NCBI GenBank assembly: GCA_002347965.1
Contig: DDYN01000031.1
Coordinates: 20,177 to 84,176 of the forward strand
Length of the DNA: 64,000 nt
Direction: 5' to 3'
Origin: Nitrospirae bacterium UBA2233
GTDB taxonomy: Bacteria > UBA2233
The translations under genes were made by a program, and so were the position numbers. Below the pieces are notes generated by a model. The model did no database searches and was not told the DNA's origin. It saw only the letters and a list, made by a program, of their open reading frames with translations. Positions 44,904 to 59,528 of the stretch are shown here, piece by piece (positions within the stretch are counted from its first letter, which is position 1; each line of letters begins with the position of its first letter).

Positions 44904-44917
44904 TTTTTGCCTAAAAC

Positions 44918-45704: not shown

Positions 45705-46481
45705 TCAGGCTGACGGAACGAATAAAGACCCTAGCGTGACTTGAGGAAGCGCGGCAAAGCTCCGTATGGACTCAAGAACGCCAGAAAAATACCCCTTGCA
45801 CTCGATGTCTCCAGGATGAAACTCTACACGTAGAACGGGCGAACGCTGCACTCGAACGCCAAGGCGGACGTACGGAAGGGCAAACACCCTCCGAAGCGGG
45901 GTTCGAACAGACCCGGAGATGACCTTCGAGCGAACACCAAGCCTTTGACGGAAGTCTACAAGCCACCCAAAGGTTGCAAGCGAACGAAACCCGGCCATTT
46001 GTACCGCAGCCCATTGTTTCCTGGAAAGCATCCAGGCGGGGGCAACAAACCCCCCCGGGGAAAGTCCGGCCTGCGATAGTATTTCAAGGCCCTCTTGAAG
46101 GCGCTCGAGGAGGTAGGGTTCAGCCATACCCAAACACTCCCCTTCCCCGTTGGTCGCCACTCTTTGCAGGACACGCCTATGGGCCCATTTTAAGCCTTTT
46201 GCCAGAGATGGATCCCAGCGGTGAAGAATACCGTGCATCGCCACGTCGTCTCCCTTGGCCGTTCTCTCTTTGACATACTTCACGAGCCTGGCTTCCTGCG
46301 AAAACTTCAGCCTGCCATGATACCACGGAACGGCAAGCAGCGTTACCCGCTCCACCCCGACCGTCTCCAGCGCACGCCGGATGGCCACAACCTGGCAAAA
46401 GCTTCCGGGGTATACGTCATGAATGGCGACGTAAAGAGACTTACTGGCCAAAAAGGCTTCTTTGATCCCGCAGGGCAACAT
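45705..46481 (-). CDS. DUF2334-like (polysaccharide-deacetylase-like) protein
   Basis: 258 aa; N-terminal [12 protein letters not shown] motif resembling the DUF2334 'IHDVSP' start. Overlaps the upstream GT4 gene by 41 nt. Confidence 0.55.
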
Positions 46482-47685: not shown

Positions 47686-50220
47686 TCAAGAAAGGCGCTT
47701 GAGGGCAAACGTCTCTCTTGCGTGCATTTGCCAAAATGCCTCAAACGCCTTGTCGAACGAACGGTTTTCCATGTAGCGCCTGGCCTCGATCATCATCTCC
47801 TGTCTTCTTGCTGGGCTCTCGAGTAGCTCTTCGATGGCCTTGACGAGCGCGAAGCTGCTCCCAGCCTTGAACACAAGGCCCGTCCTGCCTGCTTCAAGGT
47901 TCTCGGAGGGTCCGCCCTCATCGGCCACGACGACGGGGATACCGGAGGCTTGGGCTTCGAGGACGACGTTCCCAAACGTATCCGTCGAGGAGGGAAAGAC
48001 AAAAATATCGGCCGAAGCGTAAACGCTCGAGAGCTCTTCCCCTTCAAGCGGCCCTGTGAATGTAATGCCAGAACCTTCGTATTTTGCCTTCAGTGCCCCT
48101 AGATAAGGGCCATCTCCCACGACAACCAACTCGGCGGTCTTATGGCGCTCTTTGATAAAAAGGTAGGCATCGATCAGCAGGTCCAACCCCTTCTCTTTCG
48201 ATACTCTTCCCACGTACAGGAGCTTTGTTCCTCCGTTGTTCGAAAAATTTTTCCAGATATCTTGGTTGCGAAAGCGCGGATGAAAACGCTGAATGTCTAT
48301 CCCCCTCGGAAAAACCTTGATCTTATCCGGCGTAAAACCGTTTTGCACCAGTTGGTTCATCGTCGCCCTGGAGGGGACGAACACGATGTCCATCTGTTCG
48401 TAGTACCAGCGGATATATCGCCAGCTCATCTCCTCCATCGAAAAATCCCCCGTTAGGATCCGGACATACTGAGGGATGTCTGTGTGATAGATGCCGTTGA
48501 TCGGGATGTCCAAGAGCCTTGCAACCAACAGCCCGGCTAGTCCCATTGGGCCGGGCGTCGAAGAGATCACGGAGTCAAACCCCTCACGCTCGCAAAACTC
48601 CACGATGTCCAAGAAGGGCGGGACGTATAGCTTAATGCTCTCGTATTCCGGGATCGGGAATGTCAAGAGCGGAAGAAACTTGACGAATACGTCCTCTAGG
48701 TAGGCCTCAATTTTGGCGTTCTGCGGGCATGCCACGACTTTTAAGTCTTTGGCGCTCCTCTTGGCGGATCGTGCCATCTCGAGGATGGTCCTGGCTACGC
48801 CGTTGACGTCGAAGATGGTGTCCGAAAACCATACCCTCCTGTCTAAGGGTTCCCCGCGTAGGTCCTCTAGAAGGCCGAGCCCGTCTAGGACTTCACGAAT
48901 ACGCTTTTTGTCTTTGTTTTGATGGTGGTAGGAAAAAAAGTAAGGCATAAGGAACATTTGAACCATGGTAAGGGCGGAGAGGTGGTTAAAGTTGTCTAGA
49001 ATCTTGAAGGTTTTTAAGTTTTTTAAGAACTTCGAGACAAAGTTCAAAGTCATGTGCTGCGAGATGCCGGAAGCAAGCTTTAGGTAGTTGTCGTTTATCG
49101 CCTCCCACTTTGCCTCGTCCGTAGCCCAAAGGCCCGAAAGCTCTTCGCTATGCGTCAAAAAAGAGGCCCTTCGTCCAAGAATACGAAGGAGGGCTTGATC
49201 GCCCTTTGGGATGTCCTCTCTGGGCTCGTAGCGTTCGATGAGCCGTTTGACCTTTTTCGCGATCCCCGACTGGAGTGTGCCCTTGGCGCTGGACTTGGAG
49301 TTTTCTCCGTTGCTCCCCGACCCTTGGGAAATCTTGTCAAGCAACGAAAATAGCAAATCTTCCGGCTTTTTGGCCTCCTTGAGCACGTCCTTTGCTAAAA
49401 ACTGGTAAGCAATCGCGTATAAACTATGGGCAAGCCCCAGAGGCGAGCCGTACCGTCCTGCACCCCTGCTCTGGCCAGATCGAAGGAACGAAAGAAACTC
49501 TTCAGGCGTGGCAGCTTTGGGCACAACCGTGTAGGCATGGCCGACAAACAGGCCCCCGTGGTCGTCCGAACCCCCTGCCATACCTCGCCTTGTCTCAAGG
49601 ATAGGCTCGAGGTCCATCGGGTTTCGGTCGGCAAGCTCGAGCAGGAAGTCTCTCGTAAGGCACCCTAAAAGCCTCTCGAAGGCCATGCTCGTGATCGCTT
49701 TCCTCGAACCATTCACCGTCTCGAACGCAGGAAACAAGAGCAGCAACCTCTCGATATGGTAGCGCTTCAGGCGGTCGTTAATGGCATAGAAGGGGTGAGT
49801 CACGTAATGGACGACGTTCTTTTCGCGCAGATAAGCGACGAGCTCGTAGATATTGTCCCGCACGCTCGCAACATCCTCGTGAATCTTTTCGTCTATCCCT
49901 AGCACCTGGACGTGAATCTTGCAATCGTCCTCGGGAAAATACGTCGTGACTTCTTCGCCGACAATCACGTCCGGGTGGTGGGCGATTTCGAGCGCTCCGT
50001 CGATCACGTTATGGTCGGTGATCGTCACGAAGTCCATTCCTAGCGCCTTCTCCGTGGTGTACACCCAAGAAGGCTCGAGGTAGCACTCCTGGCAGCCTAG
50101 CCGCCTCAAGAGCCACTGCGTGGGCTTTGTGGAGTACTTTGAGTGAACGTGAAGATCGGCCACGGATACCAACGCCCGGTCTATATTCGAAGAAAGCGCT
50201 TTCCCTTGTTCGGTGTCCAT
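47686..50220 (-). CDS. PHP-domain phosphoesterase fused to a GT4 glycosyltransferase (844 aa)
   Basis: N-terminal PHP motifs (DLHVHSKYS..., TITDHN, ...GGSDDHG); C-terminal GT4 domain (LLYVGRVSKEKGLDLLIDAY, SSTDTFGNVVLEAQASGIPVV). Confidence 0.75.
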   Translation of the reverse strand: MDTEQGKALSSNIDRALVSVADLHVHSKYSTKPTQWLLRRLGCQECYLEPSWVYTTEKALGMDFVTITDHNVIDGALEIAHHPDVIVGEEVTTYFPEDDCKIHVQVLGIDEKIHEDVASVRDNIYELVAYLREKNVVHYVTHPFYAINDRLKRYHIERLLLLFPAFETVNGSRKAITSMAFERLLGCLTRDFLLELADRNPMDLEPILETRRGMAGGSDDHGGLFVGHAYTVVPKAATPEEFLSFLRSGQSRGAGRYGSPLGLAHSLYAIAYQFLAKDVLKEAKKPEDLLFSLLDKISQGSGSNGENSKSSAKGTLQSGIAKKVKRLIERYEPREDIPKGDQALLRILGRRASFLTHSEELSGLWATDEAKWEAINDNYLKLASGISQHMTLNFVSKFLKNLKTFKILDNFNHLSALTMVQMFLMPYFFSYHHQNKDKKRIREVLDGLGLLEDLRGEPLDRRVWFSDTIFDVNGVARTILEMARSAKRSAKDLKVVACPQNAKIEAYLEDVFVKFLPLLTFPIPEYESIKLYVPPFLDIVEFCEREGFDSVISSTPGPMGLAGLLVARLLDIPINGIYHTDIPQYVRILTGDFSMEEMSWRYIRWYYEQMDIVFVPSRATMNQLVQNGFTPDKIKVFPRGIDIQRFHPRFRNQDIWKNFSNNGGTKLLYVGRVSKEKGLDLLIDAYLFIKERHKTAELVVVGDGPYLGALKAKYEGSGITFTGPLEGEELSSVYASADIFVFPSSTDTFGNVVLEAQASGIPVVVADEGGPSENLEAGRTGLVFKAGSSFALVKAIEELLESPARRQEMMIEARRYMENRSFDKAFEAFWQMHARETFALKRLS

Positions 50221-50241: not shown

Positions 50242-51714
50242 CTACCTGGTTTGGCCTTGAAACAGCTCCTTCAACCCCTCGGCCCAGGCCAGCATAGCCT
50301 GAAAAACATCCAAGGAAGCCGATTCGAAATACAGCCTAATTTTATTCTCGGTGCCAGACGGGCGGATCAAAACCCAAGAGTCATCTTCAAAGTACCTCTT
50401 GTAGCCGTCCAGCGAGGCATCGTGCAGCATCGAGGCCCCTTGGAAGGCGCTTGGGAGGCTTTCGATCGTCGAGCGAAAGGCTTTCTCGGATCGGGCTTCC
50501 GCAACGGGGACGTCCAACCTTCGGAATGTAAGCTCTCCGTACCGAGACCTAAGCCTTAAGAGTTGTTCATGGAAAGGCCCTTCTTTGATCCGCATTTCAA
50601 GCGCAAACATGTCGGCCAAAAGCCCGTCTTTATCCGGGATGTTCGGGGAGTACGCAAAACCTCCACTCTCTTCGACGCCCAGAAGTCCCGAAGATTGCAG
50701 CATCCGCGACGCAATGTTTTTGAATCCTACGGGGCTCTCGATCACCTCGACGCCAAAGGCTCTTGCGATACGGTCAACCATGCTTGAGGTGGAAACGCTC
50801 TTGACGATGGTGCCCCTTTCCCCCCGCACACGGAGCAGGTAATCTACAATCAGCGCAATCAAATCGGTGTTATCAACATAAACCCCTTGATCGTCCATCA
50901 CCCCAAACCGGTCCCCGTCGCCGTCCGTTGCCAGACCAAGGAGCGCCCCTCTTTGGCGAACCTCGCAAGCCAGGCCACGAAGCGCCCTGGAAGAAGGGGC
51001 GGTTTCTTCAAGACCTCCAAAGTATGGGTCTGGCTGAGCATGCAACGGAAACGCTACCGCTCCCGCTTTGTTCAGCAGGCGTCCAAAGCATCGGGCACTG
51101 GCGCCGTAAAGGGAGTCGTATACGACGACGGGATTGGCTTTGCAAATTGCCCGCACATCTAGCAGCGAACACAGGTGCTCTACATAATTCTCGCTCGCGG
51201 ACACGCTCCGGAGCATCCCCTCGTTTTCGATCGGCTTAGGCACGGCGGCGTTTCTATCGCACAAGGCCTCAATTTCGCCCGTTAAAGAGCCGTCCGCAAG
51301 CCCCGTACACGTTGTAAGCTTGACGCCATGATAGTAAAACGGATTATGACTTGCCGTAACGTTGACCCCCAAGTCGTATTTGCCCTGAATGGTCGCAAAC
51401 GTCAACGCCGGGGTTGTGTTCGGATGAGCCTCAAAATCGACTGAAACCCCGGAGCGCACGAGCGTACAAGCGATCAATTCTGCAAACAACCTGGAAAAAA
51501 AGCGCGTATCGTACCCCAGACGAACAACGCGTTGGGCCTCCGAATCGCCCCGACTCAGGTAGGCGGCAATTGCGTTTGCAAGGGTTACAACCTTGGAAAG
51601 CGTAACTTCTCGGGCAAGTATGCCCCGCCAACCGGAGGTACCAAACCGGATTGGAAAATCGCTTTTGTCGAACGTCAGGTTCTCAAAAAGCCCTAAAAAT
51701 TGGATGATATCCAT
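50242..51714 (-). CDS. Phosphoglucomutase/phosphomannomutase family (alpha-D-phosphohexomutase); start taken at internal MDIIQF...
   Basis: FGTSGWRG N-terminus, active-site loop TASHNP, and metal-binding DGDGDR. Confidence 0.85.
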   Translation of the reverse strand: MDIIQFLGLFENLTFDKSDFPIRFGTSGWRGILAREVTLSKVVTLANAIAAYLSRGDSEAQRVVRLGYDTRFFSRLFAELIACTLVRSGVSVDFEAHPNTTPALTFATIQGKYDLGVNVTASHNPFYYHGVKLTTCTGLADGSLTGEIEALCDRNAAVPKPIENEGMLRSVSASENYVEHLCSLLDVRAICKANPVVVYDSLYGASARCFGRLLNKAGAVAFPLHAQPDPYFGGLEETAPSSRALRGLACEVRQRGALLGLATDGDGDRFGVMDDQGVYVDNTDLIALIVDYLLRVRGERGTIVKSVSTSSMVDRIARAFGVEVIESPVGFKNIASRMLQSSGLLGVEESGGFAYSPNIPDKDGLLADMFALEMRIKEGPFHEQLLRLRSRYGELTFRRLDVPVAEARSEKAFRSTIESLPSAFQGASMLHDASLDGYKRYFEDDSWVLIRPSGTENKIRLYFESASLDVFQAMLAWAEGLKELFQGQTR

Positions 51715-52775
51715 GATGCAAGCTGCTCCGGTGCGAACTTTCCTTTTGCTTGAAGCACCCTCACCCGACCGTTGAAATTTTTGAACAAAGCCAGGTCGGA
51801 TGCTTTCGGACAAGAACGGTCTACCGTCCCGACGACGGGAACCTTCAAGGTTTTACCAGCGAACGAAGACAGTTCTTCTTGCTCCAGCTGATCTATTTTG
51901 AAATCCTCCTTTGCATTGCGAGACCACTCCAAAAACACAACCCCCTTCAGCTCTCCCCAGGGCTTTGCAATGCCATGGCCGTACACTTCTTGTACGGGAA
52001 CGTCACGCTTCATCTCGAGGTTCCAGAGGCTATCTTGCCCTAAAGATGCGAGCTCTTTTAACTCCTTGTGACTCAAGAGCGTCCGGAGGCGGGGGTCCGA
52101 AAAGATCGTCCCAGGGTTCACCCTAGGGAGCTTTGGAAACCCGACGGCCTGCATGGATGACCCCGTATATCCTACGAGCACCCTATCGTTGGCCACGTAA
52201 CGGAACCCTTCGCCAAGGAGCCTGAGGAGCGTTGTCGTCTTGCCGCTCCCCGAGCTCGAGGCGATGAGAACAACGCCACCCTTTCTCGTAGCCGCGGCGC
52301 CTGCGTGGAACAGCAAGAACCCCGCCTCAAGCCAGGCAAGGCTCAACACGTCGTTCACAACATTGACCGCGGAATTCCAATCCGAAACGCCGGGCTCTTC
52401 AAGCCATACCGCTCGCCGCTCGCCGTTTACGATGTAGCGCAAGCCAGAGCGAACTTTCTTTATCACCAGGAACGACCCTACTTTCAGCAAGGCTTCTTTC
52501 GCCGAAATCGGCGCAAAGGAGAGCCCGTCGAGCCCTTCTGGGAACCTTCCCGCAAGCACCGCCTTGAACTGGAGGCTTGGTCCAAAAGGCATCCTCCCCT
52601 CTTCTACGAGGTAGGGGGCGTAGCGGTCCAGCAAGGAGGTTAGAGGCTTCGGGGTGGGTGCGCTGACAATCAACTCCTGCCCCATGAGGACAAGCGGAAA
52701 ACGATGGGTAGCCCTACGTTCCTGTTGCGCCAGAAAGGCCGCCAGAGAAGACTCAAGCGAGTCGTCGAAGGACAT
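51693..52775 (-). CDS. HprK C-terminal-domain-like P-loop kinase with an unknown ~190-aa N-domain (start uncertain: 52775, 52685 or the ORF-track 52910)
   Basis: LIASSSGSGKTTTLLRLLGEGFRYVANDRVLV matches the HprK GxSGxGKSE...LVADD core. Overlaps the ATP-grasp stop and the PGM start. Confidence 0.65.
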   Translation of the reverse strand: MSFDDSLESSLAAFLAQQERRATHRFPLVLMGQELIVSAPTPKPLTSLLDRYAPYLVEEGRMPFGPSLQFKAVLAGRFPEGLDGLSFAPISAKEALLKVGSFLVIKKVRSGLRYIVNGERRAVWLEEPGVSDWNSAVNVVNDVLSLAWLEAGFLLFHAGAAATRKGGVVLIASSSGSGKTTTLLRLLGEGFRYVANDRVLVGYTGSSMQAVGFPKLPRVNPGTIFSDPRLRTLLSHKELKELASLGQDSLWNLEMKRDVPVQEVYGHGIAKPWGELKGVVFLEWSRNAKEDFKIDQLEQEELSSFAGKTLKVPVVGTVDRSCPKASDLALFKNFNGRVRVLQAKGKFAPEQLASWISSNF

Positions 52776-53643
52776 AGCCGGCAAACAGTCGGGCGGCATC
52801 CAGCCCGTATGCTTCATGCAGCCCACGAAACCCGCCAAAGGCGCTGACTTCGTAGACCAAAAAACCGTCCGGCCCCTCGACGAGGTCCACTCCGGCATAA
52901 CTAAGGCCAAACACGCGCTCGGCCTGTTTTGCTATCTCAAAGGCCGACCCAGGAAGGTCGTAAGGCTCGTAATACCCGCCTTCTGCGGTGGTCGTTTTCC
53001 AGCTCCCCTCCTTCGCCACACGAGCGTAGGCTTTAAGGAACTCTCCGCCAAGAAACATCACCCCGATGTCCCTCATCCCCTTGGCAGGAATGAACTCTTG
53101 CGCATAAAAGAAAGGGCCGTGTGTTTGCTTCCAGGCCTCTAGCGCACCCTTTTCGGCTTCCGGCCTGCCCAAACCAACCCGGATCATTCCACGAGCCTTT
53201 GAGGTAAAAAGCGGCTTGATGACGACCTCTTGCACCTCCTTGAGAAAATTCAACACATCCTCGGCCCGCTCCGTGATCAGGGTTCTTGGCATGGGAACGC
53301 CCGCAAGGGCAAGTTGGAGCGTCATTCTCATACGATCAATCGCCGCCTCGATCGCTTCGGGAGGAGAAAACACGGGCGTTCCCAGGGATTGTATCGCTTT
53401 GAGCTGCGCTACGCGCTCTGTCAGCGTAATATCGGAGGAATCGCCCAGCTTCTTCACTACCACGGCATCGACGGATAGTGCATCCTCCAACCCGAGGCGG
53501 ACTTTAAGCGAAGGCAACGATGCCGCGATCGCATCGTAAGGGACCAAAAAAGCCTCGGCCCCCTCCTTGAGAAAGGCTTCTTTAAGCCTTTCGGAAGACC
53601 AAGCGCCTGGGATACCGACAACCGCTATTCGCTTTGAGGCCAT
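52753..53643 (-). CDS. ATP-grasp enzyme (RimK-like, small form)
   Basis: 296 aa; ...VIKPLFTSKARGM..., ...YAQEFI..., ...YAGVDLVEGPDGFLVYEVSAFGGF... consistent with an ATP-grasp nucleotide-binding core. Overlaps upstream and downstream genes by 19 and ~20 nt. Confidence 0.75.
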   Translation of the reverse strand: MASKRIAVVGIPGAWSSERLKEAFLKEGAEAFLVPYDAIAASLPSLKVRLGLEDALSVDAVVVKKLGDSSDITLTERVAQLKAIQSLGTPVFSPPEAIEAAIDRMRMTLQLALAGVPMPRTLITERAEDVLNFLKEVQEVVIKPLFTSKARGMIRVGLGRPEAEKGALEAWKQTHGPFFYAQEFIPAKGMRDIGVMFLGGEFLKAYARVAKEGSWKTTTAEGGYYEPYDLPGSAFEIAKQAERVFGLSYAGVDLVEGPDGFLVYEVSAFGGFRGLHEAYGLDAARLFAGYVLRRLA

Positions 53644-55229
53644 GCGATAAACCGCTCCAAGTGTAGAATGCCTAGTAGATAGAGCTTTTTTGCCAACTCC
53701 AGTTGGTTGACAACCCTGCTCGAAGTAATGAACACGCGTCCCAACGCAACCATGAGCCTTCGTTTGACATGGCGATCAGAGTAAGCGCTACCAAACGCTT
53801 CGGCAAACCTTTCGAGCGATTCATTCACAAAGACTAAGTCTTCTTTAAGGTAGGTAGAAAGCAGGGGGTTTCGAATGTTTGAAACGATGATCGTCGCGAT
53901 ATCCTGAATATAGTCCCCGTAGCCGGAGCGGTGCACATCGATGAACTTTACGCCGTCTGTTCTGCTGTCGTAAAACACGTTGTTGGAGTTAAAGTCTCCG
54001 TGAATCCAAACTTCAAACGGCGGGAAAACCTCCTCTTCTAGCAGGGCGGCTCTTTGAAGGAGTTCGCTCAATGAAGGGGCGGACTTGCCGCAAAAGGAAA
54101 CGGGAAACTTCCTGATCTCTTCGAGCTCCGGATAAAAGGCATGCACCTCTTTTAGTCTCTTGATCAATTGAGGAACATAGCGGGTCGAAGGCTCTGCTTT
54201 TCGGATTGTCGATTGCCATAGCATTCGAAGAACTTCGATAATCCTCTCGAGCGAGCGACGTTTTAGATCAAAGTCCCCGAAAAAGAGGATCTCTTCGAAA
54301 GTCTTGCCCTGGAGGTATTCCGTGACGAGGATCTCTCGGTCCCCAAAGTACTGCTCGACCGTTAGTTTAGGAACGACCCCAGGATAAACCCTCTGCCAAT
54401 CATCGATCTTCTGCGCCTCTTCCGAAATTTTACTCCGCTCGCCTTCTTTAAGCACAAGACGCCGATGGCCATCCTGCTCCACGAGGAAAACGCGCGCGCC
54501 GCTTTTCCCCCCCCAAAGCGCTTGCATCCCGGCTACCGACTGATTTTCTAACGTTTCCCGGATATGCAGCAATTGATGGACTTTTATCTTTTCTCCTAGA
54601 ATCGTGTATACTCCGAGCTCTCCCAAATTGGCAAGGACATCCCCCATGTTCTCGGCATATTTGAGGGCAAAGAGATAAGTGATCGGAAAACTCTCTTCAG
54701 TTAAGCCTACGCGACTCGCCTCTTCGAAAAGAGCGGTCACTCCTCGCTGGTAAATTTCATCCAGCCTCACCTCGAAAGCGCAGACATCCTGTGCAAGCTC
54801 GATATTTTTTTGAAAGAGCGCGTCTAGAGCCATCTTGAGCCCGGCATCGATGATACCTACAAGCTCATCAACGGGCACCCACGGGGGCATCGGGGAGTTG
54901 TCCTTGAGGTGAAGGGTTTGCTTTGCGATGTTCACCCCATAATCGGCCAGCTTCTCTAAGTTGGTCGAAACCCTCACGTATCCCCTAAGAGAGAGAACCT
55001 CGGGCTTGGGGAGCCTACCTTGCTCAATGAGATCAAAACAGCGGTCTACAATAAGGACGTTAAGGGCGTCGATCTGGTCGTCCTTCTCGATAACACCCTG
55101 GGCAAGCGTTTTATCCCTCCCCTTAAAGGCCCCGAAGGCCTCCGCCACGAGAGCTCCGACCATTCGGCCCATCTTGCCCAGCTCGTGCTGGATGCTTTCT
55201 GCATTCAGCCTTGCGTCTGCAATATCCAT
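53625..55229 (-). CDS. PhoU-domain protein fused to an aminoglycoside-phosphotransferase-like (PF01636-type) kinase domain
   Basis: N-terminal ~215 aa with two PhoU-like repeats (...STNLEKLADYGVNIAK..., ...ENMGDVLANLGE...). C-terminal domain with Brenner motif WIHGDFNSNNVFY and downstream FIDVHRSGYGD. Confidence 0.7.
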   Translation of the reverse strand: MDIADARLNAESIQHELGKMGRMVGALVAEAFGAFKGRDKTLAQGVIEKDDQIDALNVLIVDRCFDLIEQGRLPKPEVLSLRGYVRVSTNLEKLADYGVNIAKQTLHLKDNSPMPPWVPVDELVGIIDAGLKMALDALFQKNIELAQDVCAFEVRLDEIYQRGVTALFEEASRVGLTEESFPITYLFALKYAENMGDVLANLGELGVYTILGEKIKVHQLLHIRETLENQSVAGMQALWGGKSGARVFLVEQDGHRRLVLKEGERSKISEEAQKIDDWQRVYPGVVPKLTVEQYFGDREILVTEYLQGKTFEEILFFGDFDLKRRSLERIIEVLRMLWQSTIRKAEPSTRYVPQLIKRLKEVHAFYPELEEIRKFPVSFCGKSAPSLSELLQRAALLEEEVFPPFEVWIHGDFNSNNVFYDSRTDGVKFIDVHRSGYGDYIQDIATIIVSNIRNPLLSTYLKEDLVFVNESLERFAEAFGSAYSDRHVKRRLMVALGRVFITSSRVVNQLELAKKLYLLGILHLERFIAWPQSE

Positions 55230-55232
55230 GCC

Positions 55233-55538
55233 TCAAGGCTGGGCCTCATTCTCGACGGACTCCCGTTCGACCGTAATCAGCAGCGGCTCGGCGGCTAATT
55301 CAGCCTTTTTCTCCCAGGAAAGCTTCAGCACAAGCTTTGCTTTTCCTCCCTTCTTTTTTGCCTCTACATCCAGTTCGATCGCCCCTTCGGGGGTCAGGTA
55401 CATCTCTTCCACGCCGCTTGTCAGGCGTACGGCCCCATTCCTTAGGGCGCTTGCGAGGCTCTCCAGGTATTCGGCAACGACATACGGTTCGGCGAAAGTG
55501 CTAAACTCAAACTCTTCCTTCTGCCCTCTTTTTGCCAT
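55233..55538 (-). CDS. Small protein, paralog 1 of 3 (possible amphi-Trp domain)
   Basis: 101 aa; ...VAEYLESLASALRNGAVRL...ELDVEAKKKGGKAKLVLKLSWEKK. The conserved LxLKLSW strand is shared with paralog 2. A 3-nt gap separates it from the PhoU-kinase gene. Confidence 0.5.
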   Translation of the reverse strand: MAKRGQKEEFEFSTFAEPYVVAEYLESLASALRNGAVRLTSGVEEMYLTPEGAIELDVEAKKKGGKAKLVLKLSWEKKAELAAEPLLITVERESVENEAQP

Positions 55539-55596
55539 CTGTGTCGCTCCTTTTATGACATCCTAAGACCATTTTAGCGTTTTTATTCGGCAAGTC

Positions 55597-56124
55597 TCAA
55601 TGCCCAAGAACCCTAAAGCCTCTTTCTGGGCCGCTTAAAGCCTTGTAGATTTTTCCTTCCTTTTGGAGCTTTCCCTCTCCGATCAGCCGGAGCACGACAG
55701 GAGCGAGCCTTCTCCAGTTCTCTCCAAGGCCCTCACCCAACTCTATCAACGAGGCACCGTCAGGTTTTACGCGCAACAAATAATCCAGCACCCTTTCTTC
55801 CTGCAAATTACTTCCGACGGCTGAGGCAGGCTGAAATGCGTCCTCGACAGTGGTGCCGGACTCTTGGGGTCGAACATCTAGACCGACCAACATAGTAGCA
55901 TCTTTCCAGCTCAAAACAACTTTTATTTTTTCTCTATACTTGCTGGAGCTTGTAGGCCTGCGACTCGCCTTGATCCGCAACAGCGGGAGAGACGATCGAG
56001 CAAAACTGAGGTGTTGCACCCCGGCTCGGATCGTAAAACGCCCCTCTCGCACGCCGTCGGCAAGGAAGCTAAGCAGGTCGGCCACCCTTTCCTTGTCCAG
56101 TTTCAGCAGCTCCTTTATCGTCAA
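55597..56124 (-). CDS. Small protein, paralog 2 of 3 (same N-terminal ~85-aa domain plus a ~90-aa C-terminal extension, possibly winged-helix-like)
   Basis: 175 aa; ...VADLLSFLADGVREGRFTI...KYREKIKVVLSWKD aligns with paralogs 1 and 3. The C-terminus is LDYLLRVKPDGASLIELGEGLGENWRRLAPVVLRLIGEGKL. Confidence 0.45.
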   Translation of the reverse strand: MTIKELLKLDKERVADLLSFLADGVREGRFTIRAGVQHLSFARSSLPLLRIKASRRPTSSSKYREKIKVVLSWKDATMLVGLDVRPQESGTTVEDAFQPASAVGSNLQEERVLDYLLRVKPDGASLIELGEGLGENWRRLAPVVLRLIGEGKLQKEGKIYKALSGPERGFRVLGH

Positions 56125-56347
56125 TGTCCAAGGCCCTCCCCTTCAACCCCTCGACCTTGAGAGTAATACGGAAGCGATCCCCATCCTCTTTGAGCTCAAA
56201 CTCGAGCGCTACTGGACCGACAAGGAGCACGGGCTTGGAGGGCCCAAGCCCGCCTTCTACGACGAGCCTCCCCTTTGCAAACCCATACCCTAGGGTTCGA
56301 AGAAATTCCGCAGCTTCATCTCGGTTTAGCGTACGCTTAAAACGCAT
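56069..56347 (-). CDS. Small protein, paralog 3 of 3 (Trp replaced by Gly at the conserved position)
   Basis: 92 aa; ...AAEFLRTLGYGFAKGRLVV...ALEFELKEDGDRFRITLKVEG aligns with the other two. Overlaps paralog 2 by 56 nt in another frame. Confidence 0.4.
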   Translation of the reverse strand: MRFKRTLNRDEAAEFLRTLGYGFAKGRLVVEGGLGPSKPVLLVGPVALEFELKEDGDRFRITLKVEGLKGRALDIDDKGAAETGQGKGGRPA

Positions 56348-56375
56348 TCTCTTTTTTTGTCACACGCATAACGGG

Positions 56376-57155
56376 CTAACAGGCCAAACGGCCGGGAACC
56401 TCCAAGGGGATTTCATCGATTCCCCTTGCACGCTTCACGACCCTCTTGATCTTATGGCTCATGTACACCCTGAGCGCAGGGAATTTGCCGCAGTAATAGT
56501 TGGTCTTCCGGTCGTGGATGGCGTCAAACAGGTGCTCAAGGCCAAACCGCTCGTCCGGAACGAGGGTCGCTCTAACGGCCAATTGAAGCCAATGGTGGGC
56601 ATCCGACCCGCCTGTCACGGCAAGTTCGAGCTCAGAGGCACGCTGAAGGAGCTTAACCTCCAGCCCGTAATCCTTCCCGTTCACCTCCACGGCATCAAGA
56701 CGCTTGAGCAGCCTTTCGGGAAACTTTTCGAGGTTTTTTTCCCCTCTAAACATGTGCGCACCGATCAGCAACAACTCAAGCCCATCGCGGGCACCGAGCA
56801 ATTCCTCGAACGGCGGCTTGTAGCCCGACGCTGGGGGCATCGAAAGCCTCGCTGCAAGGATACGAACGTGTTCAACCGGGCCTATGGCCAAGATGTCCCC
56901 CCCCTCGGCTACGCTAACCTCCGCCCCAGGAAGAAACGCAAAATTCTTTCCGACTCGGTACACTCCATCCTTGTAAGGAAAACGAGACGAAAGGTAGCGG
57001 TATACGCTAAAAAAATCCGGCGCGTGCAAGTGCTCTGTAACCGCTATGCCTTGCAGGCCGACTACAGAAGCGGTCCTGATGTAACGATCGACGCGCTTCG
57101 GCTCGAACGTGAACGTTTTGGATAGCATCATATGGGTGTGCAGGTCTATGACCAT
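56376..57155 (-). CDS. PHP-family metal-dependent phosphoesterase (histidinol-phosphatase-like)
   Basis: 259 aa; MVIDLHTHMM..., ...AVTEHLH..., ...GGSDAHH... PHP His/Asp motifs. Confidence 0.75.
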   Translation of the reverse strand: MVIDLHTHMMLSKTFTFEPKRVDRYIRTASVVGLQGIAVTEHLHAPDFFSVYRYLSSRFPYKDGVYRVGKNFAFLPGAEVSVAEGGDILAIGPVEHVRILAARLSMPPASGYKPPFEELLGARDGLELLLIGAHMFRGEKNLEKFPERLLKRLDAVEVNGKDYGLEVKLLQRASELELAVTGGSDAHHWLQLAVRATLVPDERFGLEHLFDAIHDRKTNYYCGKFPALRVYMSHKIKRVVKRARGIDEIPLEVPGRLAC

Positions 57156-57248
57156 TTATTGCCTCCTGACGGCTAGTGTTTTACCAATCATGAGATTAGC
57201 GTACCACAGCCCAGGTTGCAGGTTTATGACGGAAACGTTACAGTTTTA

Positions 57249-59528
57249 TTACAAGGCATCGGCTTTCCACGAGGCGACAAAGCAGCTCGCAGGGTTTTTC
57301 TTGGCGACCTTTTTGAGTTTGGCCGCCTCCTCGCCCACCTCAAGATGCCCATTAAACACTCCAGGCTCAAGCAGAACGCCAGCCAAAGAGATGGCGATGA
57401 GGGGAAATTCCCGAACGTGCCCTTCTCTATCCTGGGACACGATGTATCCTCGGCTCCGGTCCTCTTCGGTGTAGAAGTTCACGATGGAGGCGTCGAAACG
57501 TTCGACAATTTCCATGCAGGCTTTTGCCGAGTTTTCTACAGGGAGGATAAAGATAAAGTCATCCCCTCCGACATGCCCCAAAAACCCGTCCTCGGCTTGA
57601 TCAATCGCGCTCTTGAGCGTAAAGGCCGTGTATTTGATTACGTCATCCCCATGGGTGAACCCATAACGGTCGTTGTAGGCCTTGAAGTTGTCGAGGTCCG
57701 CATAGACAACCACGTGCTCAAGACGCCCCTGAATCCTTCGGTTGATCTCGTCGTAAATCGGGATGTTTCCGGGTAGCCCCGTCAACGGGTTTGCGTACGT
57801 CGCGAACAAGATCTGGAGCTCGGAGGTCTTTCGGAATAGCTCGTGGACCGTGCCTAGCCCCGAATACTTCCCGGACGTCGTCACAAGAAACGGGTCGTAC
57901 ACACGAGAAGGCGGGCGTTCCAGGCAGGCCCTGGAAACACGCTCTAGAGAATCCGTTGCTTCGACGATAACGGGGTTGGGGTCCATTAGCCGCTCGATCG
58001 GCTTTTCGCAGTACAAGGCATACCCGAACTCACTCGAGAGCTTAAGGAACAAGGGTTCACGGACAACGAGGCCGACGGGACTTCCCGTTGGGTTGACGAC
58101 AGGCAGCGCCACCAGGTCTTCTTTCTCCTTGAACCTCTGAACCACCACCCTTACCTTTGTGTTTGGGAAAATTGGTTCGACAAAATATTTCAGTTCCTCG
58201 ATGACGCTTCCCGAGACGGGCCTTTCGCCGACTTCTACCTTGGAGAACAATTTATGGATATTAGTAAACGACTCCGAAAAACCAGCCACCGATTCGTTCG
58301 GCCTTCCCAAGAAATAGCCTTGCCCTAGGTCTACTCCAAGCTTGTAGACCTCTTTGAGCTCGTCAAAGGTCTCGATCCCCTCGGCAACAACGAGGATCCC
58401 TAAGGCGTGGGCCAAATCCACAAGCGAACGCACGAGGCGGAGCTTGATGTACGACTTGCCGAGGTCTTGAATAACTCCCCTGTCTATCTTGATGATATCC
58501 GGCGTTTGATGGACAAGGATGGGGATGAGGCTGATGCCGGCACCCACGTCGTCGATTGCCACGACAAACCCCTGACGCTTGTAATGGGCAATGGCCTCGA
58601 GCACGCCCTGTAGGCTAGGGAGCCTGACGTTTTCAGTAACCTCCACCACGAGCTGGTCGTAGGAAAGCCCATACCTCCGGGCAAGCGCTTTGGTAAGCCC
58701 AATTTCTCGGGAAGGCGCCAAGACCACTTCCGGATCAATGTTGACGGCAAGCCTTTTTTGGATTTTTTGCCTTGAGGCGTTGAAGAAGGCGCGTTCCCGC
58801 ATGGCTCCCTCGAGCAACGTCAGCTGGCTAGTCTCTTTGGCCGCTTCAATAAGCCGAATGATGCTTAAAAACGGCACCGAGGTGGTAGGGAAGGAGAGGC
58901 ATTCGTAGCCAAACAGCTCGGCCGTCTTGAGCGAATAGATCGGCTGGAAACGCGTAGAAATCAGCCCCCTTTGAACAATCTCCTGAATGCAGGCCTCAAT
59001 CTTGTAAGAGGTGTCGTAGCCCTTGTCAGCCCCCTTCCCTCCGTCGTTTAGCGTAGTGTTGAGGTCTTGGAAAATACGAAGAACCTGATAGTCCAAGGAA
59101 AGCTTGCAGTTCAACGCCGCTTCCAGCACGCCAACACGAATGTCCCCCCGCAAAGAGGCGGCATCTTCTATCCCAAAGGCCTGAAGGGAGGCGGGGTTCA
59201 GGAAAAACTCCCGAATTTTTGGTACCACGACTATTTTCTCGCTATGCTCAAGCGGCGCGTCGGGGATTAGGAGGAGCTCCCATGGGCCTATCACGCAGCC
59301 GGTCCCATCGATGCCCGCATATTCGGCCAGCGATTCCGCAAGGGTTCGCATCTGGTAAAGATCGGACTTAGGGGATGCGCTTGCCTGGCCATTGCCAAGA
59401 ATCTCCCGGAAGTTCACAGAAAACACACAAAACTTCTGACTTTCGGAAAGCAGGCGCTTCATGAACACGATCAGGGATTCTAGGTCGGGCAAGAGGCTAA
59501 GGCGTCTCGATTTTTCTCGTATAAACAC
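57249..59528 (-). CDS. c-di-GMP turnover protein: unknown N-domain, EAL, tandem CBS, degenerate GGDEF (GGDDF)
   Basis: EAL motifs (EVTENV, AIDDVGAG, IIKIDRGVI, VVAEGIETFDELKEV); a CBS-like region; C-terminal GGDEF fold with HVGGDDFIFILP. Confidence 0.8.
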   Translation of the reverse strand: MFIREKSRRLSLLPDLESLIVFMKRLLSESQKFCVFSVNFREILGNGQASASPKSDLYQMRTLAESLAEYAGIDGTGCVIGPWELLLIPDAPLEHSEKIVVVPKIREFFLNPASLQAFGIEDAASLRGDIRVGVLEAALNCKLSLDYQVLRIFQDLNTTLNDGGKGADKGYDTSYKIEACIQEIVQRGLISTRFQPIYSLKTAELFGYECLSFPTTSVPFLSIIRLIEAAKETSQLTLLEGAMRERAFFNASRQKIQKRLAVNIDPEVVLAPSREIGLTKALARRYGLSYDQLVVEVTENVRLPSLQGVLEAIAHYKRQGFVVAIDDVGAGISLIPILVHQTPDIIKIDRGVIQDLGKSYIKLRLVRSLVDLAHALGILVVAEGIETFDELKEVYKLGVDLGQGYFLGRPNESVAGFSESFTNIHKLFSKVEVGERPVSGSVIEELKYFVEPIFPNTKVRVVVQRFKEKEDLVALPVVNPTGSPVGLVVREPLFLKLSSEFGYALYCEKPIERLMDPNPVIVEATDSLERVSRACLERPPSRVYDPFLVTTSGKYSGLGTVHELFRKTSELQILFATYANPLTGLPGNIPIYDEINRRIQGRLEHVVVYADLDNFKAYNDRYGFTHGDDVIKYTAFTLKSAIDQAEDGFLGHVGGDDFIFILPVENSAKACMEIVERFDASIVNFYTEEDRSRGYIVSQDREGHVREFPLIAISLAGVLLEPGVFNGHLEVGEEAAKLKKVAKKNPASCFVASWKADAL

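What the first reader, a model, noticed from the sequence alone, without database searches (positions are those of the whole stretch)
51693..57155. Uncharacterised kinase / ATP-grasp / small-protein cassette (HprK-like kinase, ATP-grasp, PhoU-APH kinase fusion, three paralogous small proteins, PHP phosphoesterase)
Six to seven minus-strand genes are joined by overlaps or gaps of 3-58 nt. They are, in order: three tandem paralogous small ORFs (101, 175 and 92 aa), a PhoU-domain::aminoglycoside-phosphotransferase-like kinase fusion, a small ATP-grasp enzyme (19-nt overlap with its neighbour), an HprK-C-terminal-like P-loop kinase, and a PHP phosphoesterase just upstream. None is a housekeeping enzyme. 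The combination of two unrelated kinases, an ATP-grasp ligase, a phosphoesterase and a small-protein family reads like a phosphorylation/ligation system acting on those small proteins or on a metabolite. From memory, TIGRFAMs describes HprK-related kinases, an 'amphi-Trp' domain and an ATP-grasp 'GAK system' enzyme in shared neighbourhoods with no known function. If that memory is right, this is an instance of that unexplained system; I cannot verify it here. This is the strongest candidate in the window for a novel system.
Basis: partly seen in the sequence, partly recalled or inferred. Interest (0 to 1): 0.85.

Follow-up and report, generated by a model that had tools for sequence, protein, structure and literature searches.

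The report
Divergent phosphate-linked GAK kinase–ligase cassette
The gene set is real: it is a divergent branch of the catalogued but never studied bacterial "GAK system" (small amphi-Trp proteins, two kinases and a glutamate-ligase-type enzyme), and its neighbours across many phyla point to a role in phosphate sensing or storage.

Summary
On the minus strand lie a PHP-fold metalloenzyme, three amphi-Trp paralogs, a PhoU-PhoU-APH kinase fusion, a RimK/MptN-type ATP-grasp and an HprK-related kinase B, joined by overlaps or short gaps. In 80 species-level genomes from over 10 phyla, the order amphi-Trp > PhoU-APH > ATP-grasp > HprK-B is kept in 70-76 loci, so the PhoU-APH kinase is a fourth core component.

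The window belongs to an exclusive sister clade (12 of 86 loci). This clade scores below the curated cut-offs, lacks the CofD-like, XXXCH and 389-aa proteins of canonical loci, and carries a PsfC-like PHP enzyme instead.

New here:
- A phosphate link: pstB-phoU, phoBR, ppk/ppx or alkaline phosphatase lie next to many loci, and a conserved Pho-box-like repeat array precedes the cassette.
- A confident amphi-Trp model has no solved structural relative.
- A family-wide tail motif, W-x(8-16)-L-x-I-S-S.

No paper describes the system. The favoured but unproven mechanism is phosphate-responsive phosphorylation and glutamylation of the amphi-Trp proteins. The main rival is a small-molecule pathway.

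The parts
57215..57254 (-). Pho-box-like array: four 7-bp direct repeats at 11-bp period (TTGTAAT aaaa CTGTAAC gttt CCGTCAT aaac CTGCAAC). A TGgTACGCT extended -10-like element follows at 57198-57206.
   Evidence: Read. The only such array in the window, though the pattern was defined post hoc. The block is conserved in L001 and L081, and in L082, where the surrounding intergenic DNA does not align. The E. coli consensus alone is not significant. PhoB binding is inferred, not shown.
56376..57155 (-). PHP-fold binuclear/trinuclear metalloenzyme (259 aa), PsfC-like. Marks the 'PHP-type' GAK clade.
   Evidence: Pfam PHP_C 23.3 bits. The only PDB relative is PsfC 7rty, E 2.2e-10 over residues 2-197, with the HxH, E-H, E, H and D-x-H positions aligned. 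Present in 12 loci and mutually exclusive with the 389-aa 'c4' protein of canonical loci.
56069..56347 (-). amphi-Trp paralog 1 (92 aa). Lacks the family's Trp.
   Evidence: TIGR04354 40.3 bits, cut-off 31. Counterparts of 77-80 aa occupy the same position in L082 and L083.
55597..56124 (-). amphi-Trp paralog 2 (175 aa): an N-terminal amphi-Trp domain plus a ~75-aa C-terminal extension that matches no family.
   Evidence: TIGR04354 29.3 bits, just below cut-off; Pfam 23.3 bits. Counterparts of 169 and 205 aa in L081 and L082. The extension has no Pfam or NCBIfam hit.
55233..55538 (-). amphi-Trp paralog 3 (101 aa). This is the conserved copy immediately upstream of the PhoU-APH kinase (3-nt gap).
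   Evidence: TIGR04354 59.1 bits. An ortholog is at this position in about 58 loci. AF2 pLDDT is 85.7, with no PDB fold match. Tail motif L-L-I-T.
53625..55229 (-). PhoU-PhoU-APH kinase fusion (534 aa); a core component.
   Evidence: PhoU 92.5 bits with two stretches, APH 53.3 bits. Found in 75 of 80 loci. The PhoU metal motifs and the kinase HGDFNxxN / ID motifs are conserved at >=80% in 73 sequences. The PhoU half matches PDB PhoU structures at E 1e-13.
52753..53643 (-). RimK/MptN-type ATP-grasp ligase (296 aa), PHP-type GAK clade.
   Evidence: TIGR04356 277 bits (cut-off 300), MptN 164, RimK family 135, LysX 104. PDB RimK/LysX at E 1e-20. Falls in an exclusive clade of 12 of 86 loci.
51693..52775 (-). 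HprK-related kinase B (360 aa from the ATG at 52775; the ORF extends to 52910).
   Evidence: TIGR04355 135 bits, cut-off 200. Found in 76 of 80 loci. The Walker A SGxGK(S/T), NDR and KxPRxNPGT motifs are conserved. Only the P-loop region resembles HprK/P.
50242..51714 (-). Phosphohexomutase (PGM/PMM/GlmM-like, ~490 aa). Overlaps HprK-B by ~22 nt. Lineage-variable accessory.
   Evidence: Four PGM_PMM Pfam domains; Arch_GlmM 269 bits, below its cut-off of 439. Directly follows HprK-B in L001, L081, L082 and L083.
47686..50220 (-). PHP-like N-terminal domain fused to a GT4 glycosyltransferase (844 aa). Recurrent accessory.
   Evidence: GT4 Pfam domains 124 bits, weak PHP_C. Homologs are in 10 of 85 GAK loci from several phyla.
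46441..47613 (-). GpgS-like GT4 glycosyltransferase (390 aa).
   Evidence: NF053787 GlcNAc-PG synthase 218.8 bits, full length, below its cut-off of 480. Enzyme function from PMC12713373.
45705..46481 (-). GpgD-like deacetylase (DUF2334, 258 aa).
   Evidence: NF053788 122.6 bits, cut-off 280. Pfam DUF2334 in L082.
44918..45691 (-). PstB, phosphate ABC transporter ATPase. No pstS, pstC or pstA in the window.
   Evidence: TIGR00972 395.6 bits, above its cut-off of 343. No PstA homolog in the window.
44238..44903 (-). Stand-alone PhoU.
   Evidence: TIGR02135 217 bits, above its cut-off of 130.

Best explanation
The cassette is a PHP-type sister-clade variant of the NCBIfam/TIGRFAM 'GAK system'.

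Its invariant core is four co-transcribed genes: amphi-Trp small protein(s), a PhoU-PhoU-APH kinase, a RimK/MptN-type ATP-grasp ligase and HprK-related kinase B. In this Nitrospirota lineage the core is preceded by a PsfC-like PHP metalloenzyme and two extra amphi-Trp paralogs. It is followed by a phosphohexomutase, glycosyltransferase/deacetylase genes and an orphan pstB-phoU pair. A PhoB-type promoter probably drives it.

I think it most likely works as a phosphate-status-responsive modification module that acts on the amphi-Trp proteins:
- The PhoU domains couple the APH kinase to the phosphate signal.
- HprK-B and/or the APH kinase phosphorylate a hydroxyl residue in the flexible tail motif L-x-I-(S/T)-(S/A), which lies after the invariant Trp.
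- The ATP-grasp adds glutamate to a carboxylate of the same tail, as RimK does on S6.
- The PHP enzyme (or the 389-aa protein of canonical loci) reverses or further processes the modification.
- The resulting change in charge alters what the abundant amphi-Trp protein binds, possibly polyphosphate or another polyanion.

Shown: gene content, family assignments, co-conservation, clade structure, phosphate-gene neighbourhoods, intact catalytic motifs, the fold model and the tail motif.

Inferred: the substrate, the chemistry, the direction of regulation and PhoB control.

My confidence is about 0.9 for the identity, about 0.65 for the phosphate link and about 0.4 for protein modification.
For: Identity:
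- The best models are TIGR04356, TIGR04355 and TIGR04354.
- Among the 80 best genome loci, amphi-Trp is present in 70, PhoU-APH in 75 and HprK-B in 76, on the same strand and in the same order. Most misses lie at contig ends.
- All 12 PHP-type loci form one exclusive ATP-grasp clade.
- Canonical members score 424-513 bits; PHP-type members score 135-277.

Phosphate link:
- Two PhoU domains with conserved metal motifs sit in the core kinase.
- Bona fide PstB and/or stand-alone PhoU lie within 10 kb in 14 of 85 loci from at least 8 lineages. Roughly one locus would be expected by chance (my estimate).
- phoB(-phoR)-pstB-phoU run directly into the GAK genes in L044, L072, L012 and L033.
- L085 carries ppx, ppk1, CYTH-CHAD and alkaline phosphatase, and L084 carries alkaline phosphatase.
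- A protein with three amphi-Trp domains sits next to ppx-ppk1.
- pstB-phoU end the window's gene string.
- A conserved Pho-box-like array lies upstream.

Protein substrate:
- Amphi-Trp is always present, usually as 2-4 paralogs per locus, and is translationally coupled to the kinase (3-nt gap).
- The motif W-x(8-16)-L-x-I-[STG]-[SA] is family-wide, lies in a low-confidence tail, and many upstream copies end exactly at ...I-x-S.
- HPr-kinase homologs phosphorylate the C-terminal Ser of lasso-peptide precursors (PMC8498205).
- RimK and LysX, the nearest solved relatives of the ATP-grasp, act on protein C-termini.
- An amphi-Trp protein is among the 20 most abundant proteins of Dissulfuribacter thermophilus (PMC13490349).
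Against: - No experiment or paper bears on the system.
- The ATP-grasp is closer to MptN, a small-molecule ligase (164 bits), than to RimK (135 bits) or LysX (104 bits).
- Canonical loci carry a CofD-like protein, and the PHP protein's only solved relative acts on a phosphono-carboxylate. All three fit a metabolite pathway.
- The tail motif could be a docking strand rather than a modification site. In the window copy it is L-L-I-T-V, followed by 13 more residues, so C-terminal chemistry is not obvious here.
- The amphi-Trp C-terminal residue is not conserved: S 19, E 11, A 6 of 59.
- Phosphate genes are adjacent in only about 20% of loci.
- The Pho-box match to the E. coli consensus is no better than chance, and the degenerate pattern was defined after seeing the site.
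- No phoB or phoR is in the window.
Confidence: 0.5

Rival explanations
1. Small-molecule pathway. The enzymes build or recycle a phosphorylated hydroxy-acid/glutamate conjugate, comparable to the phospholactyl-glutamyl tail of F420 or the hydroxyglutaryl-phosphate-glutamate tail of sarcinapterin. The two kinases make the phospho-intermediate. The CofD-like protein, where present, transfers it. The ATP-grasp caps a carboxylate with glutamate. The PsfC-like enzyme processes a phospho/phosphono-carboxylate. The amphi-Trp proteins would be carriers (LysW-like) or binding/regulatory partners.
For: - After the GAK model, the ATP-grasp's next-best model is MptN (164 bits; 183 bits in L083), and it also hits CofF.
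- TIGR04357 CofD-like is present in 51 of 80 loci.
- The only solved homolog of the PHP protein is PsfC, which acts on 2-phosphonomethylmalate.
- APH-family kinases are mostly small-molecule kinases (established knowledge).
- LysX-LysW shows that a RimK-type ligase can work together with a small carrier protein (established knowledge).
Against: - The CofD-like gene is absent from the whole PHP-type clade and from 17 of 47 full-flank loci, so it is not essential.
- No gene supplies an obvious precursor: no PEP mutase, CofC or CofE was seen in the neighbourhoods.
- Multiple amphi-Trp paralogs with very variable charged tails are unusual for a carrier protein.
- There is no conserved acidic C-terminus like that of LysW.
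Confidence: 0.28
2. Polyphosphate or polyanion scaffold. The amphi-Trp proteins are abundant structural proteins that coat or organise polyphosphate granules or another polyanion. The enzymes only tune this assembly. This overlaps in part with the best explanation.
For: - amphi-Trp genes lie next to ppx-ppk1 in L085 and L086.
- The core has a conserved Lys-rich hairpin, AKxKxxKxKL.
- Many downstream paralogs carry long Lys/Ala/Pro-rich or poly-acidic tails.
- Protein abundance is high.
- The fold has no solved relative and the model's pTM is only 0.63, which would fit an oligomer-forming protein.
Against: - ppk/ppx adjacency was seen in only 1 of 85 GAK loci, plus one non-GAK contig.
- Other non-GAK amphi-Trp contexts show no phosphate genes.
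- There is no direct evidence of polyphosphate binding.
Confidence: 0.12
3. RiPP-like or defence/conflict system. The amphi-Trp proteins are precursors of a modified peptide product (graspetide-like), or the cassette is an anti-phage module.
For: - HprK-related kinases A and ScmC occur in peptide-maturation cassettes, and both give weak hits here.
- Precursor-like paralog arrays are present.
- There are weak hits to the TCAD9 and GT4-conflict Pfam families.
Against: - No PADLOC family matches, apart from one marginal P-loop hit at E 7e-4.
- There is no protease, exporter or leader/core architecture in the neighbourhoods.
- The amphi-Trp domain is a folded 70-residue domain with pLDDT >94.
- The ATP-grasp is RimK-type, with MvdC/D-type models at only about 1e-8.
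- The locus sits among housekeeping genes, with even GC content.
Confidence: 0.05
4. Ordinary housekeeping enzymes that happen to be adjacent: RimK for ribosomal protein S6, HprK/P for PTS HPr, PhoU, and an aminoglycoside kinase.
For: Public pipelines name the homologs 'ribosomal protein S6--L-glutamate ligase' or 'tetrahydromethanopterin:alpha-L-glutamate ligase'.
Against: - All equivalog models are far below cut-off: RimK 64 vs 331, MptN 164 vs 350, APH(3') 61 vs 205, PhoU 97 vs 130, Hpr_kinase_C 17.9 vs 33.3.
- No rpsF, ptsH or lysW is in the window.
- The four genes stay together across more than 10 phyla.
Confidence: 0.02

Closest known systems
Canonical GAK system (NCBIfam TIGR04354 amphi-Trp, TIGR04355 HprK-related kinase B, TIGR04356 ATP-grasp, TIGR04357 CofD-like, TIGR04358 XXXCH domain); function unknown
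   Same: Same three signature families as best hits. Same gene order amphi-Trp > PhoU-APH > ATP-grasp > HprK-B. Multiple amphi-Trp paralogs per locus.
   Different: The ATP-grasp and kinase score below the curated cut-offs (277 vs 300 and 135 vs 200; canonical members score 424-513). The CofD-like, XXXCH and 389-aa 'c4' genes are absent. A PsfC-like PHP enzyme, a phosphohexomutase and a PHP-GT4 fusion are present instead. The locus falls in a separate, exclusive clade.
RimK / ribosomal protein S6 glutamylation (RimABK)
   Same: The ATP-grasp belongs to the RimK family (135 bits; PDB RimK at E 1e-17 to 1e-20). A small protein is encoded beside the ligase. In this lineage an EAL-domain protein lies upstream, with a generic hit to the RimA model.
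   Different: The RimK equivalog model scores 64 against a cut-off of 331. There is no rpsF. The small protein is amphi-Trp, which has no Glu-Glu C-terminus. The EAL-GGDEF gene is conserved only in close relatives.
LysX-LysW amino-group carrier protein system
   Same: A RimK-family ATP-grasp (LysX 104 bits; PDB 1uc8 at E 4e-19) is encoded together with a small protein and a kinase.
   Different: There is no LysW-like zinc-ribbon protein or EDWGE tail, and no lysZYJK genes. The LysX model is far below its cut-off of 275.6.
HprK/P-HPr, and the HPr-kinase homologs of lasso-peptide clusters
   Same: A P-loop kinase with the HprK-type Walker A and following Asp region. The lasso-peptide kinases phosphorylate a C-terminal Ser of a peptide, and many amphi-Trp proteins end in ...I-x-S.
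   Different: Only about 40 residues align to HprK/P (E 0.15). The N-terminal domain is unrelated. There are no HPr and no lasso-peptide genes.
MptN / CofF with CofD (cofactor tail biosynthesis)
   Same: The ATP-grasp's second-best model is MptN. Canonical GAK loci carry a CofD-family protein.
   Different: MptN scores 164 against a cut-off of 350. CofD-like is absent from the window. The hosts are bacteria, with no methanopterin or F420 genes seen nearby.
PsfC (PDB 7rty), the dinuclear non-heme-iron enzyme of Pseudomonas fosfomycin biosynthesis
   Same: It is the only solved homolog of the 259-aa PHP protein (E 2.2e-10 over residues 2-197), and the metal-ligand motifs align.
   Different: Sequence identity is low. 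There are no PEP mutase or phosphonate genes. The hosts are mostly anaerobes, so an O2-dependent reaction is unlikely (inference).
PhoU / PstB phosphate signalling complex
   Same: The kinase's N-terminal half is a full two-repeat PhoU (96.7 bits, profile positions 8-211 of 212) with conserved metal motifs. Genuine pstB-phoU pairs neighbour many loci.
   Different: It is fused to a kinase and scores below the PhoU equivalog cut-off (130). Interaction with PstB or PhoR is untested.

Membership tests
GAK system (NCBIfam/TIGRFAM) | ATP-grasp matching TIGR04356 at or above the curated cut-off (300 bits) | tested here: not met
   277.3 bits, full length and the best model by 113 bits. Canonical members score 424-457, and the PHP-type L083 scores 271.
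GAK system (NCBIfam/TIGRFAM) | amphi-Trp domain protein(s), TIGR04354, cut-off 31 bits | tested here: met
   59.1 and 40.3 bits pass. The third paralog scores 29.3 bits, just below.
GAK system (NCBIfam/TIGRFAM) | HprK-related kinase B, TIGR04355, cut-off 200 bits | tested here: not met
   135.2 bits, aligned to profile positions 86-290 only. Canonical members score 490-513, and L083 scores 243.
GAK system (NCBIfam/TIGRFAM) | Conserved neighbourhood: amphi-Trp, ATP-grasp and HprK-B adjacent on one strand | tested here: met
   The order is the same as in 70-76 of 80 loci, with PhoU-APH between amphi-Trp and the ATP-grasp.
GAK system (NCBIfam/TIGRFAM) | CofD-like protein, TIGR04357 | tested here: not met
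   tblastn of 70 family members against the window finds nothing beyond one spurious hit. The family is absent from all 12 PHP-type loci.
GAK system (NCBIfam/TIGRFAM) | XXXCH-domain protein, TIGR04358 | tested here: not met
   No tblastn hit in the window. There is zero co-occurrence with PHP-type loci.
RimK (S6 glutamate ligase) | Equivalog model NF007764 at or above 331 bits, with S6 as substrate | tested here: not met
   64.4 bits.
HprK/P | Hpr_kinase_C domain at or above 33.3 bits, with HPr present | tested here: not met
   17.9 bits. PDB HprK at E 0.15 over 38 residues. No HPr in the window.
LysX/LysW carrier system | LysX equivalog at or above 275.6 bits, with a LysW carrier bearing an acidic C-terminal tail | tested here: not met
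   104.3 bits. No LysW homolog. The amphi-Trp C-termini are not conserved.
Pho regulon member | PhoB-binding Pho box at the promoter and induction by phosphate limitation | tested here: inconclusive
   A four-repeat, 11-bp-period array is conserved in four related loci, but the match to the E. coli consensus is at chance level. Binding and induction are not testable with these tools.
PHP phosphoesterase | PHP fold with metal ligands, and phosphoester hydrolysis | tested here: inconclusive
   PHP_C scores 23.3 bits, and the ligand motifs align with PsfC. However, PsfC is an oxidative decarboxylase. Activity is not testable here.
Anti-phage defence systems (PADLOC) | Match to a known or candidate defence protein model | tested here: not met
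   Eight of nine proteins have no hit. The ninth has one marginal P-loop hit at E 7e-4.

The most novel reading that the evidence does not exclude
GAK would be a bacterial, phosphate-controlled 'charge code'. A PhoU-gated kinase, an HprK-type kinase/phosphorylase and a RimK-type polyglutamylase would write phosphate and glutamate marks on the disordered tails of a previously unseen protein fold (amphi-Trp). The marked protein would in turn control polyphosphate granules or Pst/PhoR signalling. That would make it a new branch of phosphate homeostasis, present in sulfate reducers, Nitrospirota, Planctomycetota, Chloroflexota and others.
Probability: 0.2. Interest if true: 0.85.

Novelty: new variant of a known kind. 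Interest (0 to 1): 0.66.

Why it matters
The four-gene core is conserved from Nitrospirota to Planctomycetota, Chloroflexota and Alphaproteobacteria. Even so, no paper mentions the system.

It combines three enzyme types whose relatives write protein marks (HprK, a protein/small-molecule kinase fold, RimK) with a small protein whose confident model has no solved structural relative. Its neighbourhoods tie it to PhoU/PstB/PhoB signalling and, in places, to polyphosphate enzymes. How PhoU transmits the phosphate signal, and how anaerobes manage phosphate storage, are open questions. A PhoU domain fused directly to a kinase offers a tractable handle on the first.

The PHP-type clade described here falls below NCBI's naming cut-offs. 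Such loci are therefore annotated as generic 'RimK family' or 'ATP-grasp' proteins and go unnoticed. Cultured hosts exist for experiments: Desulfoluna butyratoxydans, Maridesulfovibrio sp. FT414, Aestuariispira insulae and strain NaphS2.

Tried and rejected
- **389-aa 'c4' protein as a divergent PHP enzyme.** By eye it shares an H-P ... D-x-E-V-x-N ... G-D-D-T-H pattern with the PHP protein. hhalign gave E 0.11 and probability below 1%, so homology is not claimed. Only the mutual exclusivity at the same position stands.
- **Word-indexed protein searches for amphi-Trp.** These returned only 5-6 close relatives, even with a 55-sequence profile. The exhaustive representative search was needed.
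- **afdb50 fold library.** It was unavailable.
- **E. coli Pho-box consensus across all loci.** With up to 2 mismatches it gave 5 scattered hits and no positional enrichment upstream of GAK operons. A general Pho-box claim is therefore not made.
- **Promoter, terminator and Rfam scans.** The promoter/terminator scan found no more sites than shuffled controls. Rfam found nothing between 42 and 62 kb.
- **Extra amphi-Trp contexts.** L087-L090 were uninformative.
- **Frameshift artefact joining the 92- and 175-aa ORFs.** Rejected, because L082 keeps two separate genes at the same place.
- **Desulfovibrio alaskensis phosphate-limitation study.** Its text (PMC5193443) mentions no ATP-grasp or HPr-like gene. 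Whether that strain has a GAK locus could not be checked.

Full report
**1. What is in the sequence**

| ORF | Best family evidence |
|---|---|
| 259 aa | PHP_C, 23.3 bits |
| 92 aa | amphi-Trp TIGR04354, 40.3 bits (cut-off 31) |
| 175 aa | amphi-Trp TIGR04354, 29.3 bits |
| 101 aa | amphi-Trp TIGR04354, 59.1 bits |
| 534 aa | two PhoU domains plus an APH-type kinase |
| 296 aa | TIGR04356 'GAK system ATP-grasp enzyme', 277 bits; then MptN 164, RimK family 135, LysX 104 |
| 405-aa ORF | TIGR04355 'HprK-related kinase B', 135 bits |

- Alignment with 68 orthologs and the gene call in a 64%-identical relative put the kinase start at 52775 (360 aa). That gives a 23-nt overlap with the ATP-grasp.
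- The 92- and 175-aa ORFs overlap in different frames. A relative keeps two separate genes at that place, so this is not a frameshift artefact.

**2. Is it the GAK system?**

The three signature families are the best hits.
- The RimK, HprK, LysX, MptN, PhoU and APH(3') equivalog models all score far below their cut-offs.

I examined the 80 best loci. They come from Nitrospirota, Thermodesulfobacteriota, Planctomycetota, Chloroflexota, Nitrospinota, Zixibacteria, Rokubacteria, Ignavibacteria, Gemmatimonadota, SAR324 and Alphaproteobacteria.

In those 80 loci:
- amphi-Trp is present in 70, the PhoU-APH fusion in 75 and HprK-B in 76.
- They lie on one strand in the fixed order amphi-Trp > PhoU-APH > ATP-grasp > HprK-B.
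- Most misses are at contig ends. All 47 loci with full flanks have both amphi-Trp and PhoU-APH.

The PhoU-APH kinase has no dedicated NCBIfam model, yet it is as much a core component as the three named ones. Its PhoU metal motifs and its kinase catalytic motifs (HGDFNxxN, ID) are conserved. So are the Walker A, NDR and KxPRxNPGT motifs of HprK-B.

**3. A distinct variant**

De novo clustering of the neighbours recovered the other canonical partners:
- a CofD-like protein (TIGR04357) in 51 of 80 loci;
- an XXXCH-domain protein (TIGR04358) in 27 of 80 loci;
- an upstream 389-aa protein with no Pfam or NCBIfam match in 55 of 80 loci.

None of the three is present in the window.

The PHP protein occurs in 12 loci. 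These include the window, three relatives at 93%, 64% and 53% ATP-grasp identity (L001, L081, L082), loci from Chloroflexota and Rokubacteria MAGs, and two from other samples (L083, L085). It never co-occurs with the 389-aa, CofD-like or XXXCH proteins.

In a neighbour-joining tree of 86 ATP-grasp sequences, these 12 form an exclusive clade.

| Clade | TIGR04356 (cut-off 300) | TIGR04355 (cut-off 200) |
|---|---|---|
| Canonical | 424-457 bits | 490-513 bits |
| PHP-type | 271-277 bits | 135-243 bits |

The window is therefore a sister-clade variant that annotation pipelines will not label as GAK. Public names for its relatives are 'RimK family' or 'ATP-grasp family protein'.

**4. The PHP protein**

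Its only solved relative is PsfC (7rty), at E 2.2e-10 with the metal-ligand motifs aligned. PsfC is a dinuclear non-heme-iron enzyme. It converts 2-phosphonomethylmalate to 3-oxo-4-phosphonobutanoate (bioRxiv 10.64898/2026.01.15.699783). 'Phosphoesterase' is therefore an assumption.

I suspected that the 389-aa protein is a divergent PHP enzyme. Profile-profile comparison did not support this (E 0.11).

**5. The phosphate link (new here)**

- *Within the window.* The co-directional string continues past HprK-B. It carries a phosphohexomutase (about 22-nt overlap), a PHP-GT4 fusion, a GpgS-like glycosyltransferase, a GpgD-like deacetylase and then bona fide PstB and PhoU, both above cut-off. 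The window has no pstS, pstC, pstA, phoB or phoR. The same string is kept in relatives at 64% and 53% identity.
- *pstB and phoU across loci.* Genuine PstB and/or stand-alone PhoU lie within 10 kb in 14 of 85 loci, from at least eight lineages and in different arrangements. I estimate roughly one such locus by chance, given one pst cluster per 3-4 Mb genome.
- *Pho master genes.* In Desulfovibrionaceae and Desulfurivibrionaceae, phoB(-phoR)-pstB-phoU run straight into the GAK genes on the same strand.
- *Polyphosphate and phosphatases.* One locus carries ppx, ppk1, CYTH-CHAD and alkaline phosphatase, and another carries alkaline phosphatase. A protein with three amphi-Trp domains, outside any GAK locus, sits beside ppx-ppk1.
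- *Recurrent accessories.* The PHP-GT4 fusion recurs in 10 of 85 loci and the phosphohexomutase in 8.
- *Promoter.* Upstream of the PHP gene are four 7-bp direct repeats at 11-bp spacing (TTGTAAT/CTGTAAC/CCGTCAT/CTGCAAC, 57215-57254), followed by an extended -10-like TGgTACGCT. The array is unique in the window. It is conserved in three related loci, including one whose flanking intergenic DNA does not align. It has the layout of a Pho box. However, the match to the E. coli consensus alone is at chance level, and the degenerate pattern was defined after I saw the site. I treat PhoB control as plausible, not shown.

**6. The amphi-Trp proteins**

- *Family size.* An exhaustive profile search found 1670 cluster representatives. 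Nearly all are stand-alone proteins of 80-200 aa, and a few have two or three tandem domains.
- *Structure.* With an 81-sequence alignment, AlphaFold gives pLDDT 85.7, above 94 for residues 11-75. The model has one helix (18-34) packed on two long beta-hairpins (37-48, 55-74). The tail has lower confidence.
- *Conserved features.* These are the invariant Trp at the end of the last strand, a Lys-rich hairpin, and the motif L-x-I-[STG]-[SA], which lies 8-16 residues after the Trp (L in 64 of 81 sequences, I in 66 of 81).
- *Tails.* Copies upstream of the kinase often end exactly at ...I-x-S. Copies downstream of HprK-B or the CofD-like gene continue from 'LKISSEEPE' into long acidic or Lys/Ala/Pro-rich tails.
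- *Copy number.* Loci usually hold 2-4 paralogs.
- *Only published mention.* An amphi-Trp protein is among the 20 most abundant proteins of Dissulfuribacter thermophilus (PMC13490349).

**7. Mechanism**

I favour a phosphate-responsive protein-modification module acting on amphi-Trp, at about 0.4. The reasons are:
- The small protein is obligatory and multi-copy.
- Its gene is translationally coupled to the kinase gene.
- A conserved hydroxyl-bearing motif sits in a flexible tail.
- HPr-kinase homologs phosphorylate the C-terminal Ser of lasso-peptide precursors (PMC8498205).
- RimK and LysX, the nearest solved relatives of the ATP-grasp, act on protein C-termini.

In this model the PhoU domains would gate the kinase by phosphate status. 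The PHP or 389-aa protein would reverse or process the mark.

The main rival, at about 0.28, is a small-molecule pathway. It rests on the MptN/CofF-like affinity of the ligase, on the CofD-like partner of canonical loci and on the PsfC-like enzyme. In that case amphi-Trp would be a carrier or a binding protein.

A scaffold role for amphi-Trp on polyphosphate overlaps with the favoured model. Defence, RiPP and housekeeping readings are unlikely. None of these can be settled without experiments.

**8. Verdict**

- The system is a catalogued 'known unknown', and no literature on it was found.
- The window holds a previously undelineated PHP-type variant of it.
- The analysis adds a fourth core gene, a phosphate-regulon context, a fold with no solved relative and a candidate modification motif.

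I rate it as a new variant of a known kind, with interest 0.66.

Noticed in passing
window 57198-57254 (minus strand): Four 7-bp direct repeats at 11-bp period (TTGTAAT/CTGTAAC/CCGTCAT/CTGCAAC) overlap the stop codon of the EAL-GGDEF gene. A TGgTACGCT element follows. The layout is Pho-box-like, conserved in L001, L081 and L082, and unique in the window.
   Followed up: partly
window 45705-47613 (minus strand): An adjacent GT4 glycosyltransferase (390 aa) and DUF2334 protein (258 aa) resemble GpgS and GpgD, the glucosaminyl-phosphatidylglycerol synthase and deacetylase of Pseudomonas aeruginosa. Both score below the curated cut-offs (219 vs 480; 123 vs 280). They may form a membrane-lipid glycosylation module beside pstB-phoU.
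   Followed up: partly
window 44238-45691 (minus strand): A bona fide pstB-phoU pair has no pstS, pstC, pstA, phoB or phoR anywhere in the 64-kb window. The same orphan pair ends the gene string in L001 and L082.
   Followed up: partly
window 47686-50220 (minus strand): An 844-aa fusion joins a PHP-like N-terminal domain, a long linker and a GT4 glycosyltransferase. Homologs recur in 10 of 85 GAK loci from several phyla, on either strand.
   Followed up: partly
window 55597-55830 (minus strand): The C-terminal ~75 residues of the 175-aa amphi-Trp paralog match no Pfam or NCBIfam family. By eye the segment (…VLDYLLRVKPDGASLIELGEGLG…KLQKEGKIYKAL) looks like a winged helix. This was not tested by structure prediction.
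   Followed up: partly
window 57249-61016 (minus strand): An EAL-CBS-GGDEF protein (759 aa) and a 440-aa radical SAM protein lie directly upstream. They are syntenic in L001, L081 and L082 but not in other phyla. The EAL domain gives a generic hit to the RimA model (116 bits, cut-off 430).
   Followed up: no
L036:6850-8019 and 54 other loci (not in the window): A 389-aa protein family with no Pfam or NCBIfam match is found in 55 of 80 GAK loci, immediately upstream of amphi-Trp. It is mutually exclusive with the PHP protein. hhalign does not support homology to PHP (E 0.11).
   Followed up: partly
L086:167-4214; L085:1-6174: amphi-Trp genes lie next to ppx and ppk1 in two unrelated contigs. 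One of them encodes three tandem amphi-Trp domains. L085 adds CYTH-CHAD, a histidine phosphatase and PFK before its GAK genes.
   Followed up: partly
L088:7290-9233; L090:5274-7363: A second recurrent amphi-Trp context lies outside GAK. It consists of an ~88-aa ORF, an 82-91-aa amphi-Trp protein and a 410-459-aa protein with two amphi-Trp-like stretches, located a few kb from a sigma-54 activator. In L088 it is also close to pspA and pspC.
   Followed up: no
window 55571-55600 (minus strand): A sigma-70-like promoter match (TTGAGA-18-TAAAAT, 10 of 12) lies in the 58-nt gap before the 101-aa amphi-Trp gene. It could give that gene extra expression, but the region as a whole has no more such matches than shuffled controls.
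   Followed up: no
L012:4307-5941: A 544-aa protein with a CehA/McbA-family (PHP-like) metallohydrolase domain (71.9 bits, cut-off 80) sits between phoB and the XXXCH gene of a canonical GAK locus.
   Followed up: no
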